Shown here: one piece after another, positions 3,771-36,803 of the stretch
How the letters are laid out: each line of letters starts with the position of its first letter
Numbering within the stretch: the first letter of the stretch is position 1
Source of the DNA: Alphaproteobacteria bacterium
GTDB taxonomy: Bacteria > Pseudomonadota > Alphaproteobacteria > Bin95
Direction: 5' to 3'
Length of the DNA: 64,000 bases
Assembly: GCA_963668305.2 (NCBI GenBank)
Contig: CAXXPN010000003.1
Coordinates: forward strand, 544,001-608,000
The notes under the pieces: model-generated
Told to the model about the DNA's origin: nothing
The model's database searches: none
Seen by the model: the letters and a program-made list of their open reading frames with translations, nothing else
Made by a program: the position numbers and the translations under genes

Positions 3771-4025
3771 GAATGTCATGAAGTGTCATGTTTTGTCATG
3801 CGATGTCAGGGTTTTTCATGCCGGCCACTCATATCCGATGGCCCTTCCCGGCATACCCCCCGTTTAACCGCCCCCCTGTTTTCGGCATGGGTTCCCAATT
3901 CGCGCGATACGCGCCGGCGGGAGGCGGGCTGGCCTCCGGATGCCGTTTCCTCCTGCCCCATTCTATCACGGTTCGGCGGAGATCGTGCCCGATTCAGGCT
4001 TTAATTCAAATTATATGCGAACAAA
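3771..4025 (-). repeat. Dispersed intergenic element, copy A (divergent), with five 10-bp-phased TGTCATG-type units at 3771-3820
   Basis: gaaTGTCATG aagTGTCATG tttTGTCATG cgaTGTCAGG gttTTTCATG. Shares TTCGCGCG, CTCCGGAY and TCAAA..GAACAAA blocks, in the same order, with copies B and C. Confidence 0.7.
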
Positions 4026-4049
4026 TCGCCGTTCCCGATCATCTTTCCC

Positions 4050-4310
4050 CTTGTATCTCTCTGGATAGCCATGGTTGCTATTGTTGCAGTGGCGGAAGCG
4101 GACGGGAGACCGGTACCCCTCTGGTGCATGAGACCGTGGATGAGCATGGCTCCCCGTCCGCAGTTCCGTTGAACCCGAACAGTCGCTCGGTCCGCGTTGC
4201 GAGACCGCATTTGCAAGGAAGGGTCATGGAACAGGTTTATGTAGGGATCGATGTGGCGAAGGACCGCCTGGACGTGCATCTGCGCCCGTCGGGTGAGGCC
4301 TTTGCCGTCC
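4050..4310 (+). mobile_element. IS110-family element remnant (left end plus first ~28 codons of the recombinase)
   Basis: ATG 4226 gives MEQVYVGIDVAKDRLDVHLRPSGEAFAV, the GID-V-A-K start of the IS110 DEDD domain. Homology stops at the stop codon of the convergent cupin gene. The left end begins CT-TGTAT. Confidence 0.85.
4092..4225 (+). ncRNA. Putative IS110 bridge RNA (target- and donor-binding loops)
   Basis: Two stem/internal-loop/stem units directly upstream of the recombinase ATG: GCGGACGGG...CCCGTCCGC, and ACCC-ga-ACAGTCGCT-CGGTC..GACCG-c-ATTTGCAAG-gaa-GGGT. The second resembles the IS621 donor loop as recalled. Confidence 0.65.
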
Positions 4311-4751
4311 CTACCGCTCCAGGTCCGGCTCCACACCCTCAGCAGCCTCCCTTCCGTCGAAGCGGCCGTCATAGATCGGGCGGGCGCCGGTGGTGGGGCC
4401 GGGATATTGCATGAAGACGATGGTGCAGCCGGTTTCGGTGTGCATCTCGTGCTCGAAATGCGGGTCTTCCATATAGACCATGTCGCCGGCGCTCAGCGTC
4501 CGGTCGCCGAAGCGGCATTCGCCCTCGGCCACATACCAGAGCTGGGCGAATTCGTGCCTGTGCAGCGGGAAGCCCGCGCCCGGCGCGTAGGTGACGAGGC
4601 CGGCATTGGGCGTGGTCGGGCGCTCCGGGGTCGGGTGGAAGACCATCCGCGTCACATTGGCGAAACGCCCCGCATGGCCCGGATGGTCCGAAGGGCGCCG
4701 GACGACCGGGGCGTGGTGCTTGGCGGGGCGTTCGGTCCCGGACTTGGACAT
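4311..4751 (-). CDS. Cupin domain protein
   Basis: PGAGFPLHRH..AQLWYVAEG and GDMVYMEDPHFEH cupin motifs; GGAGG before ATG 4751. Confidence 0.8.
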   Translation of the reverse strand: MSKSGTERPAKHHAPVVRRPSDHPGHAGRFANVTRMVFHPTPERPTTPNAGLVTYAPGAGFPLHRHEFAQLWYVAEGECRFGDRTLSAGDMVYMEDPHFEHEMHTETGCTIVFMQYPGPTTGARPIYDGRFDGREAAEGVEPDLER

Positions 4752-4784
4752 GCGGCGGTCCTCCCTGTGCGGTCGGTGCACGCC

Positions 4785-34047: not shown

Positions 34048-36072
34048 TCAGCGCATGGCGGCGGCGATATTGCCGCCATCGACGGTGAGCACGGCGCCCG
34101 TGGTCTTGCGCGCGCGGGCGAGATCGACGAAGGCACGCGCGACATCCTCCGCCAGCACCTCGCGGCCGAGCAGGTTGCCGCGCATGTAGTCCGCCTCGCT
34201 GACGCCGCGCGCGCCGGCCCTGGACGCTACCATCGCGTCGTCCAGCAGGCCGCTGCGGATGCGGTCGGCATTGACAGCGTTGGCGGCGATGCCGTCCCGC
34301 CCATAGTCGATGGCGTATTGGCGCATGAGGGCCAGGGTCGCGGCCTTGGGCAGGCCGTAGGGGCCGAAATCGGGGCCCGGATTGACCGCCTGCTTCGAGA
34401 CGTTGAACAGCAGGCTGCCGCCCGTGCCCTGGTCGCGCATGATCCTGACGGCTTCCTGCGCGGCGCTCTGGTGGGCGAAGAAGTTGAGCTCGAAGCTCTG
34501 CCGCAGCAGCGCGTCCTCGACTTCGCCGATGCGCCCCTGCCAGGCCGCGCCCGCATTCGAGACGAGGATATCGACGCCGCCATGGCGCCGGCAAACCTCG
34601 GCGAAGGCCGCCCGCACCGCGTCGGGCCGGGTCATGTCGCATTCGAGGATATCCGGGCCGGCCTCCAGGTCGAGGCCGACCGCCTCCGCGCCCTCGGCGC
34701 GGAAGGCCGCCATGATTGCCTGCCCGATGGCGCCGGCCGCGCCGGTAACGACCGCGACCTGCCCGGCAAGCGGCGGCGGCGCGGCTTGGCCCAGCTTCGC
34801 CTGTTCGAGCGGCCAGTATTCGATGTCGAACAGGTCCTCTTCGCCAATACTTGTGAACCGCCCGATGCGTTCGGCGTCGGCGATGACCTCGATGGCGGCC
34901 TCGGCGATATCGGCGGCGATGGCGGCCGCCTTCGCGTCCCCGCCCGCCGCGAAAAGGCCGACGCCCGGCGCCAGCAGCACGCGCGGGGCGGGGTCCAGCG
35001 CCGTGCGGCTGTTGCCGGCCCGCGCATTGCCGCGCTCGAAATAGGCGAGATAGTCGGCCTCGAATTTCCGGACGGCCCGTTCCGCGCCCCGCGCGAACTC
35101 ATCCAGCGCGCCCGCCTGCGCCGCCGGCAGCAGCACCGGCCAGGACTTCACCCGGAGCGAGTGGTCGGGCGTGACGGTGCCGGCGAGCCCGTAGCGGCCG
35201 ACCTCCGCGCCGTCCACGAAGCGGCGGACATGCGCCCCGCCCCGGAAGGTGAGCACGAAACGCTTCGCCTCGCCGCCGGGCGTCCCGGCCGAACGCGAGA
35301 GCAGGCCGCGCAGCAGCGGCGCGATCTCCTCCGGTCGGGCCGGCCGGGCCGGCAGCGCGGTGCTCGCGAAGACCTTCGCCGGGGCCTTCGCCAGGTGCGC
35401 TTCGGCGCGGTCGGCGAGCCGGATCATGCGCTCATAGGCCTCGCGCGCCGTCTCGCCGAAGGTAAAGGCGCCGTGGTTCAGCAGGATCATGCCCTCGCAG
35501 TCCGGCGTCTCCTCGAACAGCTCCGCCGCTTTCCGCGCGAGTGCGAAGCCGGGCATGATGTAGGGCACGAGCACGACCTTCCCGCCGAAGACCTCGCGGC
35601 AGAGCGCGGCGCCGTCCGGCTGGTCGGTCAGCGCCAGCACGGCATTGGCGTGGGTGTGGTCGATATAGCGGTGCGGCAGGAAGGCGTGCAGCAGGGTCTC
35701 GACCGACGGTGTCGGCGCCGAGGGGTCGAGCAGGGCGGACCGGTGCGCGGCCACCATGTTCTCGTCGGAGAGCGCGTCGCGCTGCCGGAGCCGCTTGAGC
35801 GGCTCCAGCCGGACCGCCGGCAGGCCCGCCGGCTCGATCCGGCCCATGTCCCAGCCCGAGCCCTTGACGCAGAGCACCTCCACCTCGTCGCCGGCAAGGT
35901 CGGTCATGCGCGTCTTGAGCGAGGTGTTGCCGCCGCCATGCAGCACCAGGCGCGGCTCGCCGCCGAGCAGCCGTGTCGTATAGACCCGGAGCGCCAGGTC
36001 CGCACCGATGCCTTCCGTGCGGTAACGCGCGACCGCCGCTTCCGCTTCCCGGTCGGACCAGAGAGTCTTCAT
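34048..36072 (-). CDS. Bifunctional class II aldolase / short-chain dehydrogenase
   Basis: LVLHGGGNTSLK, VKGSGWD, PSVETLLH, DHTH, YWPLEQAKL, TGAAGAIG, YGLPK. Confidence 0.92.
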   Translation of the reverse strand: MKTLWSDREAEAAVARYRTEGIGADLALRVYTTRLLGGEPRLVLHGGGNTSLKTRMTDLAGDEVEVLCVKGSGWDMGRIEPAGLPAVRLEPLKRLRQRDALSDENMVAAHRSALLDPSAPTPSVETLLHAFLPHRYIDHTHANAVLALTDQPDGAALCREVFGGKVVLVPYIMPGFALARKAAELFEETPDCEGMILLNHGAFTFGETAREAYERMIRLADRAEAHLAKAPAKVFASTALPARPARPEEIAPLLRGLLSRSAGTPGGEAKRFVLTFRGGAHVRRFVDGAEVGRYGLAGTVTPDHSLRVKSWPVLLPAAQAGALDEFARGAERAVRKFEADYLAYFERGNARAGNSRTALDPAPRVLLAPGVGLFAAGGDAKAAAIAADIAEAAIEVIADAERIGRFTSIGEEDLFDIEYWPLEQAKLGQAAPPPLAGQVAVVTGAAGAIGQAIMAAFRAEGAEAVGLDLEAGPDILECDMTRPDAVRAAFAEVCRRHGGVDILVSNAGAAWQGRIGEVEDALLRQSFELNFFAHQSAAQEAVRIMRDQGTGGSLLFNVSKQAVNPGPDFGPYGLPKAATLALMRQYAIDYGRDGIAANAVNADRIRSGLLDDAMVASRAGARGVSEADYMRGNLLGREVLAEDVARAFVDLARARKTTGAVLTVDGGNIAAAMR

Positions 36073-36164
36073 GCGGTCCCGCACCCTTCCGCTCGCCACA
36101 TGCAGGCGCTTATAGCCGGGAAAGCCACCCGCGCCCACAACCGCCGCCCCCGCGAAGATGGAGG

Positions 36165-36199
36165 GACCCCTGCGCCTCGTGTCATGATCTGTCATGTTT
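36165..36199. repeat. Extra copy of the TGTCATG array end (direct repeat of 36364-36398)
   Basis: gacccc-tgcgcctcgTGTCATGatcTGTCATGttt versus gaccccttgcgcc-caTGTCATGaatTGTCATGttt. Confidence 0.7.
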
Positions 36200-36363
36200 C
36201 CCATGCGCCGGGATCATGCCCTGGGGCCCGCCCGGGTATAGCATTCCCTCGATGATACGCCCGTCCCGCTTGCGGGTGACGGTTTCACACATCTGCCGGC
36301 GGCGGCCTGGCACTGCATGGCTCTTGTCCGTCGCTCCGGACCGATCCGGGGCGACGGTGGGGA

Positions 36364-36803
36364 GACCCCTTGCGCCCATGTCATGAATTGTCATGTTTTG
36401 TATCGAGGTCCGTCGGAGCGCCTTCCTTTCCGCCGCTGCCGGAGTCGTCTCCGCCCCGGTCGAAATATGCGGCCAGCGCCGCCGCCAGTGCGGGGCGGGG
36501 ATCGGTTGCAGTCATCGGGCCTCCTCCTTGTCCTTCGCTCCTCCCGCCGCCGTTCTGCTTGCGGCGGGTCCCTGTTTCGCGCGTATCGCGCGCGGGCGGG
36601 CGGGCGTGTCGGCGCCGGCGCGGTTCGCGCGCCTGATCGCGCGCGAGGCGGTGGACGCAGGTCTCCCGTCGGCCTTGCAGGTATTTTTTCGGATCCGGGG
36701 GAAGCGGCTCCGGACGCCTCTTCCCTCATGGACAGCATACCATACTTTTTTCAGGGTCAAACCTTGTGCGGAACAAACAGCATATTATCGGGACTTTTTT
36801 CTC
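36364..36803 (-). repeat. Dispersed intergenic element, copy C
   Basis: Same ordered blocks as copy B in the opposite orientation, with an extra ~80-nt segment in the leader. Confidence 0.8.
36381..36515 (-). CDS. 44-aa micro-ORF MTATDPRPALAAALAAYFDRGG...KHDNS
   Basis: AAGGAGGAGG RBS; N-terminus conserved with 25930-26013; stop codon lies inside the CATGACA array. Confidence 0.55.
   Translation of the reverse strand: MTATDPRPALAAALAAYFDRGGDDSGSGGKEGAPTDLDTKHDNS

What the first reader, a model, noticed from the sequence alone, without database searches (positions are those of the whole stretch)
3771..36803. Unannotated dispersed element family: promoter, hairpin leader, micro-ORF, phased heptamer array (3 copies)
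Seen: three intergenic regions (A 3771-4025 minus, B 25744-26036 plus, C 36364-36803 minus) share ordered blocks. These are TTTGTTC..TTTGA, an extended -10 (TGaTAGAAT / TGcCAATAT / TGgTATGCT), a GGYRTCCGGAG hairpin, CGCGCG stems, an RBS plus short ORF in B and C, and CATGACA repeats. B and C align closely; A is divergent. I see no transposase, terminal inverted repeats or target duplication, and the neighbouring genes are unrelated. Inference: a self-contained expression unit spread through the chromosome, such as a non-autonomous mobile element, a small RNA/peptide module or a chromosome-organising site. I do not recognise it as a named family.
Basis: partly seen in the sequence, partly recalled or inferred. 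Interest (0 to 1): 0.82.

Follow-up and report, generated by a model that had tools for sequence, protein, structure and literature searches.

The report
Decayed copies of repeated gene cassette
Three intergenic stretches are worn-down copies of a gene cassette that is repeated many times in a group of uncultured, mostly sponge-derived Alphaproteobacteria; intact copies carry a phage-type small-terminase gene or an unknown gene between a shared promoter-leader and a shared array of phased 7-base repeats.

Summary
A, B and C share ordered blocks, and the CATGACA-N3 array is far beyond chance (8 matches against 0.12 expected). A strict 20-mer from the array hit more than 108 loci in 19 assemblies, 18 of them related Alphaproteobacteria MAGs, with at least 12-18 loci per complete chromosome. 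No Rfam family matches.

The unit is a cassette. Its left end is TTTGTTC plus an A/T-rich tract and sigma-70-like hexamers with a constant 15-nt spacer. A GC-rich leader with a near-invariant core follows, then a Shine-Dalgarno site and a cargo ORF. The right end is the heptamer array, which holds the cargo's last four codons and its stop.

Intact cargos are a lone small-terminase-type HTH protein or an unnamed 190-210-aa protein 'X'. The micro-ORFs of B and C are the first 24 and 16 codons of X, so they are pseudogene stumps. A carries a truncated ~40-codon ORF of a third type.

The B and C insertions are shared with relatives at 88-90% protein identity and decay at about the neutral rate. 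Near-identical copies elsewhere show recent spread. The way it spreads and the role of the array are inferred, not shown.

The parts
4005..4025 (-). Copy A: left-end motif TTTGTTCGCATATAATTTGAA
   Evidence: Found. TTTGTTC marks the sharp left boundary of five aligned cassettes in other genomes.
3960..3968 (-). Copy A: TGaTAGAAT, an extended -10-like element with no -35 partner
   Evidence: Read. One search found a -10 but no TTGAC at 15 nt. The standard scan did not call it.
3915..3945 (-). Copy A: leader hairpin region holding GGCATCCGGAG (3934-3944)
   Evidence: Motif. The fold is not better than shuffles (z -0.99). Homologous to the 5' part of L010- and L062-type units.
3901..3915 (-). Copy A: GGCGCG-TAT-CGCGCG short GC stem, a remnant of the CGCGCG-AUA-CGCGCG leader block
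   Evidence: Read, compared with the alignment.
3829..3888 (-). Copy A: truncated short ORF MPKTGGRLNGGYAGKGHRI*
   Evidence: Translated. Aligns with the 39-41-codon MPKTQ-type ORFs of L029, L058 and L105. No long relative was found: 1 hit of 41 aa among 1.84 billion representatives.
3774..3820 (-). Copy A: array of five heptamers at period 10 (three perfect CATGACA). It ends 67 nt before the ATG of the alpha/beta-hydrolase gene (2825-3706, minus strand).
25744..25790 (+). Copy B: A/T-rich left part, TTTGTTC (25768-25774) and -35-like TTGACA (25785-25790)
25803..25811 (+). Copy B: TGcCAATAT, -10-like, 15 nt after TTGACA
   Evidence: Read. Not called by the standard scan.
25817..25849 (+). Copy B: 5' hairpin GGAGAAG..GUGUCCGGAG..CUUCUCC
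   Evidence: -20 kcal/mol, z -2.78, 1 of 200 shuffles as good.
25846..25919 (+). Copy B: 3' half of the leader core, including GCGCGCG-AAA-CGCGCGC (25871-25887) and GGGACCC (25896-25902). The first half of the core is deleted.
   Evidence: nhmmer hit to the core profile, E 1.4e-4; alignment.
25920..26013 (+). Copy B: Shine-Dalgarno AAGGAG plus a 27-codon ORF stump (ATG at 25930) whose TGA lies in the first heptamer. Its first 24 residues equal those of protein X (P0014).
26009..26035 (+). Copy B: array of three heptamers (the third is CATCACA)
26082..26090 (+). Not part of the unit: TGgTATAAC, the PhyH gene's own extended -10-like element. It is conserved in the orthologous loci L055 and L077. 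The PhyH ATG is at 26129.
36755..36810 (-). Copy C: A/T-rich left part, TTTGTTC (36771-36777) and -35-like TTGACC (36755-36760)
36734..36742 (-). Copy C: TGgTATGCT, -10-like, 15 nt after TTGACC
   Evidence: Not called by the standard scan.
36698..36727 (-). Copy C: 5' hairpin GGGAAG..GCGUCCGGAGCC..CUUCCC
   Evidence: -16.3 kcal/mol, z -1.5, 18 of 200 shuffles as good.
36533..36675 (-). Copy C: complete leader core (CGCGCG-AUCAG-GCGCGCG-AACC-GCGCCGGCGC ... CGCGCG-AUA-CGCGCG-AAACAGGGACCC plus a stem)
   Evidence: nhmmer E 2.6e-29. BLASTN hits in 55 loci. Alignment of 38 cores.
36381..36530 (-). Copy C: Shine-Dalgarno GGAGGAGG plus a 44-codon ORF stump (ATG at 36515) whose stop lies in the second heptamer of array C1. 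Its first 16 residues equal those of X.
36379..36395 (-). Copy C: array C1, two heptamers
36180..36196 (-). Copy C: array C2, two heptamers. In the MAFFT alignment it lines up with the array that ends the 111-codon X ORF of the orthologous locus L056, so it is probably the original cassette end. It ends 107 nt before the ATG (36072) of the aldolase/SDR gene.

Best explanation
A, B and C are cargo-less or truncated relics of a clade-specific, multi-copy gene cassette.

An intact cassette has these parts, in order:
- a sharp left end (TTTGTTC) and an A/T-rich tract;
- sigma-70-like hexamers with a fixed 15-nt spacer and a TG extension;
- a 5' hairpin;
- a GC-rich leader with a near-invariant core;
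- a strong Shine-Dalgarno site;
- one cargo gene;
- a right end made of 2-5 CATGACA heptamers at a 10-bp period. This array encodes the cargo's last residues (..HD-x-x) and its TGA stop, and is followed by about 15 nt resembling CCGCAGGGGTCC.

Two unrelated long cargos use the same ends. One is a lone small-terminase-type HTH protein of about 300-360 aa. The other is an unnamed protein X of 190-210 aa.

Shown: the family, its anatomy, its copy pattern and the decay of the window copies. They are internal deletions that keep both ends, as in non-autonomous derivatives of mobile elements. The B and C insertions predate the split from relatives and drift at about the neutral rate.

Inferred: the cassette spreads as DNA by a mechanism not yet identified. 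The predicted promoter fires, so relics may send transcripts towards the co-oriented host genes. The phased heptamers are a protein-binding site; the best candidate binder is the cassette's own terminase-type HTH protein, by analogy with pac sites that lie in or beside terS genes (recalled knowledge).
For: Family and copy number:
- A strict 20-mer from the array hit more than 108 loci in 19 assemblies. 18 of these are Alphaproteobacteria or Rhodospirillaceae MAGs. Single chromosomes hold 18 and 12 loci. My hand estimate for chance is about 9 hits in 596 Gb.
- 185 distinct arrays were found.

Sharp ends:
- Six copies from one chromosome are 80-86% alike from about 30 nt upstream of the -35 to the last heptamer, with unrelated flanks.
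- Five cassettes start to align exactly at TTTGTTC.

Leader-array linkage:
- 75 of 117 arrays with at least 700 nt of upstream sequence have the core within 1300 nt on the same strand.
- 48 of 51 cores are followed by an array.

Cargo:
- Full-length X in L011 sits behind the core. There are 73 X homologues, none with a functional name (one is called 'hypothetical protein').
- 14 of 21 fetched X proteins end in HD-x-x.
- The Terminase_2 HTH cargo scores E 1e-10 to 1e-11 in four loci, flanked by ordinary metabolic genes.
- At least 256 terminase-type homologues exist, with up to three distinct 90% clusters sharing one longest-contig length.
- 22 of 24 fetched terminase-type proteins end in HD-x-x.
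- The two cargos share only that tail.

Window stumps:
- B matches the first 24 residues of X (P0014) and C the first 16.
- C lacks about 500 nt relative to L011.
- The orthologous locus L056 still has a 111-codon ORF.

Age of the insertions:
- Host orthologues are 88-90% identical and carry the unit upstream.
- Leader core identity is 0.81, against 0.74-0.83 at fourfold-degenerate sites.

Recent spread:
- L065 and L070, from the same MAG, are 99% identical over the last 250 nt of the cassette and 55% in the flanks.

Orientation:
- Arrays between co-directional genes point with them 21 times and against them 3 times.
Against: - No terminal inverted repeat or target duplication was seen at five aligned left ends and their right ends.
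- No transposase or recombinase lies inside any cassette examined, so the means of spread is unknown.
- The standard sigma-70 scan calls none of the three promoters. The 15-nt spacer is short.
- RNAalifold finds no covarying pair in the core (0 of 14 pairs) and no consensus at all for 19 hairpins.
- 42 of 117 arrays have no core upstream.
- Stand-alone arrays sit at a conserved operon-internal spacer in five MAGs (L016, L067, L072, L073, L076). The array therefore has a life apart from the cassette.
- Binding of the array by the terminase-type protein is untested.
Frequencies are therefore biased.
- Gene calls in the loci come from a crude GC3 filter.
Confidence: 0.68

Rival explanations
1. 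The unit is a cis-acting leader. A promoter, a structured 5' UTR and a translated upstream ORF that ends in the array together control the downstream host gene, by attenuation, Rho access or re-initiation at the overlapping ATGA.
For: - All three window copies lie 67-107 nt upstream of co-oriented genes.
- A strong Shine-Dalgarno site plus ATG is present in 24 of 28 units examined. In 16 of those 24 the ORF stops at a TGA of the array.
- The 10-nt period puts TGA and ATG in all three frames (read directly from the sequence).
- Orientation follows transcription, 21 against 3.
Against: - 15 of 86 arrays lie between convergent genes.
- The ORFs are stumps of unrelated proteins, and 7 of 18 are frameshifted.
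- PhyH and the aldolase/SDR gene keep their own conserved -10-like elements downstream of the array.
- In 63 arrays, ORFs leaving the array stop at ATGA-type overlaps with starts of the downstream frame 13 and 7 times. My rough expectation is about 12 each.
- There is no fixed -10 at a set distance after arrays.
Confidence: 0.12
2. The arrays are operator sites of a host transcription factor that binds phased direct repeats (an OmpR/PhoB-type or ribbon-helix-helix type regulator). The 'family' would then be a regulon.
For: - There are 2-5 heptamers at an exact 10-bp period with variable spacers.
- The reverse complement, TGTCATG, resembles the Pho-box half-site CTGTCAT (recalled).
- Stand-alone arrays are conserved about 96 nt upstream of a gene in five MAGs.
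Against: - The period is 10, not the 11 of Pho boxes (recalled).
- Arrays overlap the stop codons of cassette genes in 22 of 24 and 14 of 21 proteins.
- Arrays occur between convergent genes.
- There is no constant distance to a -10.
- 64% of arrays are tied to the same leader upstream, which a regulon does not explain.
Confidence: 0.1
3. The transcript is a trans-acting small RNA or a protein-titrating RNA whose (CAUGACA)n tail binds a global RNA-binding protein.
For: - The unit has its own promoter-like element and a 5' hairpin.
- The repeated motif sits at the 3' end of the conserved unit.
- Orientation is biased with transcription.
Against: - No intrinsic terminator follows the arrays.
- There is no covariation and no Rfam match.
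- Intact units are protein-coding.
Confidence: 0.06
4. The resemblance is chance or compositional.
For: GGYRTCCGGAG with one mismatch is not enriched. GC-rich stems are common in this genome.
Against:: motif counts far above shuffles, BLAST and nhmmer E-values down to 1e-29, and more than 100 related loci.
Confidence: 0.01

Closest known systems
MITE-like or other non-autonomous deletion derivatives of mobile elements
   Same: The relics are short (250-630 bp), multi-copy and intergenic. They keep both ends of longer gene-bearing copies while the interior is deleted.
   Different: No terminal inverted repeats, no target duplication and no transposase in the long copies. The two ends are unlike each other.
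Putative mobile promoters ('promoter reuse in prokaryotes', PMC3575422; I saw only the search listing and the start of the abstract)
   Same: Highly similar promoter-bearing 5' regions lie upstream of unrelated genes in one genome.
   Different: Here the promoter belongs to a cassette with its own cargo and its own 3' end. The host genes examined keep their own promoters.
pac sites within or beside small-terminase genes of pac-type phages such as P22, SPP1/SF6 and P1 (recalled, not checked in a paper)
   Same: A terminase-type HTH gene carries short phased repeats at its own 3' end. The N-terminal domain matches the solved SF6-type TerS DNA-binding domains weakly (E 0.003-0.008).
   Different: The gene stands alone among metabolic genes, with no large terminase or capsid genes within 2 kb. 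It is multi-copy. The same repeats also end an unrelated gene and occur alone at dozens of chromosomal sites.
Mosaic intergenic repeats such as BIME, RIME and BOX elements (recalled)
   Same: Modular, dispersed intergenic repeats with variable module content. Neighbouring REP-like palindromes are seen in the MAG loci.
   Different: Those families are built of palindromic units and carry no gene. This one has a promoter, a Shine-Dalgarno site, an ORF and direct heptamer repeats.
Pho box and other phased direct-repeat operators (recalled)
   Same: 7-bp direct repeats on one face of the helix; TGTCAT-like core.
   Different: 10-bp rather than 11-bp period. The position overlaps stop codons and is not a -35 position.

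Membership tests
Any Rfam RNA family | Covariance-model match at the gathering score | tested here: not met
   0 matches in the whole window. Permissive scans of A and C gave nothing with E up to 1. The scan of B gave nothing with E below 1, and its best match (E 1, 18 bits) is far below its gathering score of 52.
MITE | Terminal inverted repeats | tested here: not met
   The left end (TTTGTTC..GAAATAATTC) and the right end (CATGACA array plus CCGCAGGGGTCC) are unrelated. Judged by eye; no formal scan was run.
MITE | Target-site duplication | tested here: inconclusive
   None seen at five cassettes, but the right end is defined only to within a few bases.
MITE | Short, non-coding, multi-copy deletion derivative of a longer element | tested here: met
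MITE | Parent element encodes a transposase | tested here: not met
   The long copies carry only a Terminase_2 HTH protein or protein X.
Terminase small subunit (cargo of the long copies, absent from the window) | N-terminal HTH DNA-binding domain | tested here: met
   Pfam PF03592 with E 2.5e-10 to 2.7e-11, over model positions 2-70 of 141. PHROG 51. Phage TerS hits. PDB 4zc3, 2cmp and 3zqp with E 0.003-0.008.
Terminase small subunit | Encoded next to a large terminase within a phage or GTA packaging module | tested here: not met
   In L021, L030, L044 and L036 the neighbours are LysR, GNAT, DAO, rhodanese, dioxygenase and MoCo enzymes.
Leader-peptide attenuator | Conserved short peptide or regulatory codons | tested here: not met
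   At least three unrelated ORF types; 7 of 18 X-type starts are frameshifted.
Leader-peptide attenuator | Terminator/antiterminator alternative after the peptide | tested here: not met
   No terminator-like site after the arrays of A, B or C. There is only weak conservation for about 15 nt after arrays.
Pho box (PhoB operator) | Two or more 7-bp repeats at an 11-bp period replacing the -35 | tested here: not met
   The period is 10 in all 185 arrays, by construction of the search. There is no fixed -10 downstream. The consensus itself is recalled.
Integron gene cassette | Promoterless ORF followed by an imperfect-palindrome attC site | tested here: not met
   The unit has its own promoter-like 5' end, and its 3' end is made of direct repeats.

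The most novel reading that the evidence does not exclude
The cassettes are a selfish or domesticated packaging-initiation system. Lone small-terminase-type proteins would recognise the phased CATGACA arrays as pac-like sites. These sites are scattered at dozens of chromosomal positions, including relics such as A, B and C. A helper phage or gene-transfer agent would then start headful packaging there and move the adjacent host genes and the cassette itself. 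This would be a built-in platform for lateral transduction in uncultured symbionts.
Probability: 0.1. Interest if true: 0.88.

Novelty: new variant of a known kind. Interest (0 to 1): 0.6.

Why it matters
For annotation:
- The window's 'micro-ORFs' should be marked as pseudogene stumps.
- The 600-bp spacers should be marked as cassette relics, not as novel regulators.

For biology:
- A whole clade of uncultured Alphaproteobacteria carries tens of copies per genome of a cassette with an unusual build: two unrelated genes share one promoter-leader and one heptamer array that encodes their last four residues and stop.
- One of the two cargos is a lone, multi-copy small-terminase-type protein.
- I found no description of this. 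The searches were made, all in open-access full text only.
- If the arrays prove to be binding sites of that protein, this would be a new way for phage-derived DNA-binding modules to colonise or mark a chromosome.
- The relics also place strong promoter-like elements next to host genes.
- IS66 elements appear to insert beside the arrays.

Tried and rejected
- **Rfam.** Gathering and permissive scans gave nothing usable.
- **RNAalifold.** On 38 leader cores it gave a weak -9 kcal/mol consensus with no compensatory pair. RNA structure is therefore neither supported nor excluded.
- **Translational coupling from the array into host genes.** No enrichment.
- **A fixed -10 downstream of arrays.** None.
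- **Standard promoter scan.** No call for A, B or C.
- **Plasmid collection.** No close relative of the window; the best hit is Tistrella at 78% over 524 nt.
- **Full-length cargo in the window.** tblastn for X or the terminase-type protein found none. In that call my aldolase query was out of frame; I redid it correctly.
- **A long parent for A's MPKTQ-type ORF.** Only one 41-aa hit.
- **Naming X.** Pfam, NCBIfam, PADLOC and a PDB profile search gave nothing. PHROG 31793, of unknown function, scored E 5e-5. The ESM Atlas gave only sub-threshold leads.
- **Weak nhmmer hits at 56.6-56.8 kb.** They lie in coding DNA and were dropped.
- **A left-end/right-end inverted-repeat resemblance (ATGAAAT).** Seen in 3 of about 11 left ends only, and dropped.

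Full report
**1.

Reading the three regions and aligning them shows the same order of blocks in each:
- TTTGTTC;
- a TG-extended -10-like hexamer;
- a GGYRTCCGGAG hairpin loop;
- CGCGCG stems;
- GGGWCCC;
- CATGACA heptamers spaced exactly 10 nt apart.

The array is the strongest signal. CATGACANNNCATGACA with up to 2 mismatches occurs 8 times in the window against 0.12 expected. These hits fall at four sites: A, B, C and a further array at 36180-36196. The exact loop motif occurs three times, once per copy, against 0.38 expected. With one mismatch it is not enriched.

B and C align at 70% over 155 nt (E 3e-16). A shares only the array with them, but matches units of other genomes in its 5' part.

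All three lie in spacers of about 600 bp, upstream of and co-oriented with unrelated genes: an alpha/beta hydrolase, a PhyH dioxygenase and an aldolase/SDR fusion.

**2. It is a large family in one clade**

- By my count, the loci come from 19 assemblies.
- 18 are labelled Alphaproteobacteria or Rhodospirillaceae MAGs, many of them from sponge projects.
- One hit, in a deltaproteobacterial MAG, looks like chance. I estimate about 9 chance hits in the whole collection; this is hand arithmetic, not a tool result.
- Single chromosomes hold at least 18 loci (OZ253490.1) and at least 12 (OY730441.1).
- Relaxing the pattern inside these loci gives 185 distinct arrays: 79 with 2 heptamers, 81 with 3, 25 with 4 and 3 with 5 (the size tally is over the 188 arrays found before removing 3 duplicates).
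- Rfam has no match.
- Three literature searches found nothing on such repeats.

**3. Anatomy and ends**

- Six copies from one chromosome are 80-86% identical from about 30 nt upstream of the -35-like hexamer to the last heptamer. Beyond both points they are unrelated.
- Five cassettes from four assemblies begin to align exactly at TTTGTTC.
- In all 10 units where my pattern found both hexamers, TTGAC(N) and TANNNT are 15 nt apart. The same spacing is read directly in B and C.
- The standard 16-18-nt scan therefore calls none of them. The promoter is an inference from conservation.
- The leader holds a 5' hairpin. In B it scores z -2.8; L010 and L034 score z -3.3 and -2.6; C and A are not significant.
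- The leader also holds a core with a near-invariant stretch, GCAATCAGGCGCGCGAACCGCGCCGGCGC.
- BLASTN finds the core in 55 loci besides the window.
- Of 117 arrays with enough upstream sequence, 75 have the core within 1300 nt on the same strand and 42 do not. 48 of 51 cores are followed by an array.
- RNAalifold gives no compensatory pair. Whether the leader acts as RNA remains open.

**4. The micro-ORFs are stumps of real genes**

- A strong Shine-Dalgarno site plus ATG follows the core in 24 of 28 units. In 16 of those 24 the ORF stops at a TGA of the array.
- The B and C ORFs begin MTATDPRPALAAALAA. Their four nucleotide differences in these 16 codons are all synonymous.
- In locus L011 the same start opens a 192-aa ORF.
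- That ORF has 73 homologues of about 105-236 aa with no functional name (one is called 'hypothetical protein') and no Pfam domain.
- P0014 shares its first 24 residues with B.
- Of 18 such ORF starts linked to a leader, 7 are frameshifted. C lacks about 500 nt relative to L011.
- 14 of 21 fetched X proteins end in HD-x-x, which is the heptamer read as CAT GAC Ann nCA TGA.
- A second, unrelated cargo uses the same leader and the same ending. It is a protein of about 300-360 aa whose first ~70 residues are a small-terminase HTH domain. The evidence is Pfam at 1e-10 to 1e-11 and PHROG 51, phage TerS hits and weak matches to solved TerS DNA-binding domains.
- 22 of 24 fetched members of this family end in HD-x-x.
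- The two cargos share nothing except that tail.
- The terminase-type genes stand alone between ordinary metabolic genes.
- At least 256 homologues exist, and up to three distinct 90% clusters share the same longest-contig length, which suggests several copies on one chromosome.
- Copy A carries a truncated version of a third ORF type of about 40 codons. No long relative was found for it.
- The window has no intact cargo.

**5. Age and turnover**

- PhyH has orthologues of 88-89% identity in L077 and L055. The aldolase/SDR gene has one of 90% in L056. Each has an array upstream, and L055 and L056 also have the unit.
- The stretch between the array and the host ATG is well conserved. It contains the host gene's own TG-extended -10-like element.
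- Between the window and L056 the leader core is 81% identical. Fourfold-degenerate sites of the host genes are 74-83% identical. The cassette interior differs by large deletions.
- The B and C relics are therefore old and drift at about the neutral rate.
- Elsewhere the family is young. Two terminase-type cassettes of one MAG are 99% identical over their last 250 nt and 55% beyond the array.

**6. What the array does is not settled**

Facts:
- The period is exactly 10 bp.
- The spacers vary.
- TGA and ATG fall in all three frames.
- Arrays lie in intergenic DNA.
- Between co-directional genes they point with transcription 21 times and against it 3 times.
- They also lie 15 times between convergent genes and 19 times between divergent genes (the gene calls are crude).
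- A stand-alone four-heptamer array is conserved in an operon-internal spacer in five MAGs.

I found no fixed downstream -10 and no excess of stop-start coupling into host genes.

The helical phasing, together with a cassette-encoded terminase-type DNA-binding domain, makes a protein-DNA site the reading I favour. Small terminases of pac phages bind repeats in or beside their own gene; this point is recalled and was not checked in a paper. I put this reading at roughly one in four. Host-regulator and RNA-level readings remain possible.

**7. Verdict**

The 'self-contained micro-ORF or small-RNA module' reading is not supported.

The window copies themselves are ordinary relics. The parent cassette is the interesting object:
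- two unrelated cargos with shared ends;
- a lone multi-copy small-terminase-type gene;
- a coding and stop-bearing heptamer array.

**Limits**

- Loci were ascertained by the array pattern and capped at 108.
- Only 80 loci have 2-kb flanks.
- No structure prediction could be run.
- There is no expression or binding data.

Noticed in passing
L060:421-1926 (minus strand); array-side ends in L022, L060, L099, L087, L063 and L033: An IS66-family transposase element (Pfam DDE_Tnp_IS66, E 9e-38) ends ...GGGCAGTTAC directly against a heptamer array in six loci of one MAG chromosome. In one of the six it is in the opposite orientation. The arrays may be preferred insertion sites, or simply A/T-rich islands.
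   Followed up: partly
window 26787-28145 (+): A DDE_Tnp_1 / DDE_Tnp_1_assoc transposase ORF lies directly after the PhyH gene, about 750 nt downstream of copy B. Its listed start overlaps the PhyH end. I found no link to the cassette.
   Followed up: no
L109:4965-5696 (Skermanella rosea plasmid pSR-2): Lone genes annotated 'terminase small subunit' also lie on plasmids of cultured Skermanella. They are 34-36% identical to the cassette protein over about 105 aa, and the one locus I inspected (pSR-2) sits between non-phage genes. There is no CATGACA array at the 3' end.
   Followed up: partly
L016, L067, L072, L073 and L076, around position 2000 (1017-1060 in L072): A stand-alone four-heptamer array, with no cassette, is conserved in five MAGs. 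It lies 25-30 nt after the stop of one gene (804-815 nt by my crude gene finder in L016 and L076; 482 nt from a divergent gene in L067) and 96 nt before the next. In all five, the ORF from the penultimate heptamer stops 6 nt before the downstream start.
   Followed up: partly
L007, L011, L013, L017, L077 and L092 (downstream of arrays); L002:840-1700; L034 (reverse strand): Other REP-like palindromic repeats (GTCATGCCCGGACTTGTTCCGGGCAT; TTGTCACCCCGGAC...GTCCGGGGTGACAA) crowd the same long spacers. In L002 an ORF is flanked by ~29-bp inverted repeats.
   Followed up: no
L014, L015, L034, L041 and L062 (short units): A second hairpin type, GGCGGC-UUCCGGGG-GCCGCC, is followed by UUUUCGAUU. It looks like an intrinsic terminator only about 45 nt after the predicted start. 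This suggests early termination in some units. The window copies lack the U tract.
   Followed up: no
first 80 loci: 27 of 80 loci are cut short by a contig end within 2 kb of the array, several inside the cassette itself (for example L065 and L070). This is as expected if the repeat breaks short-read assemblies.
   Followed up: no
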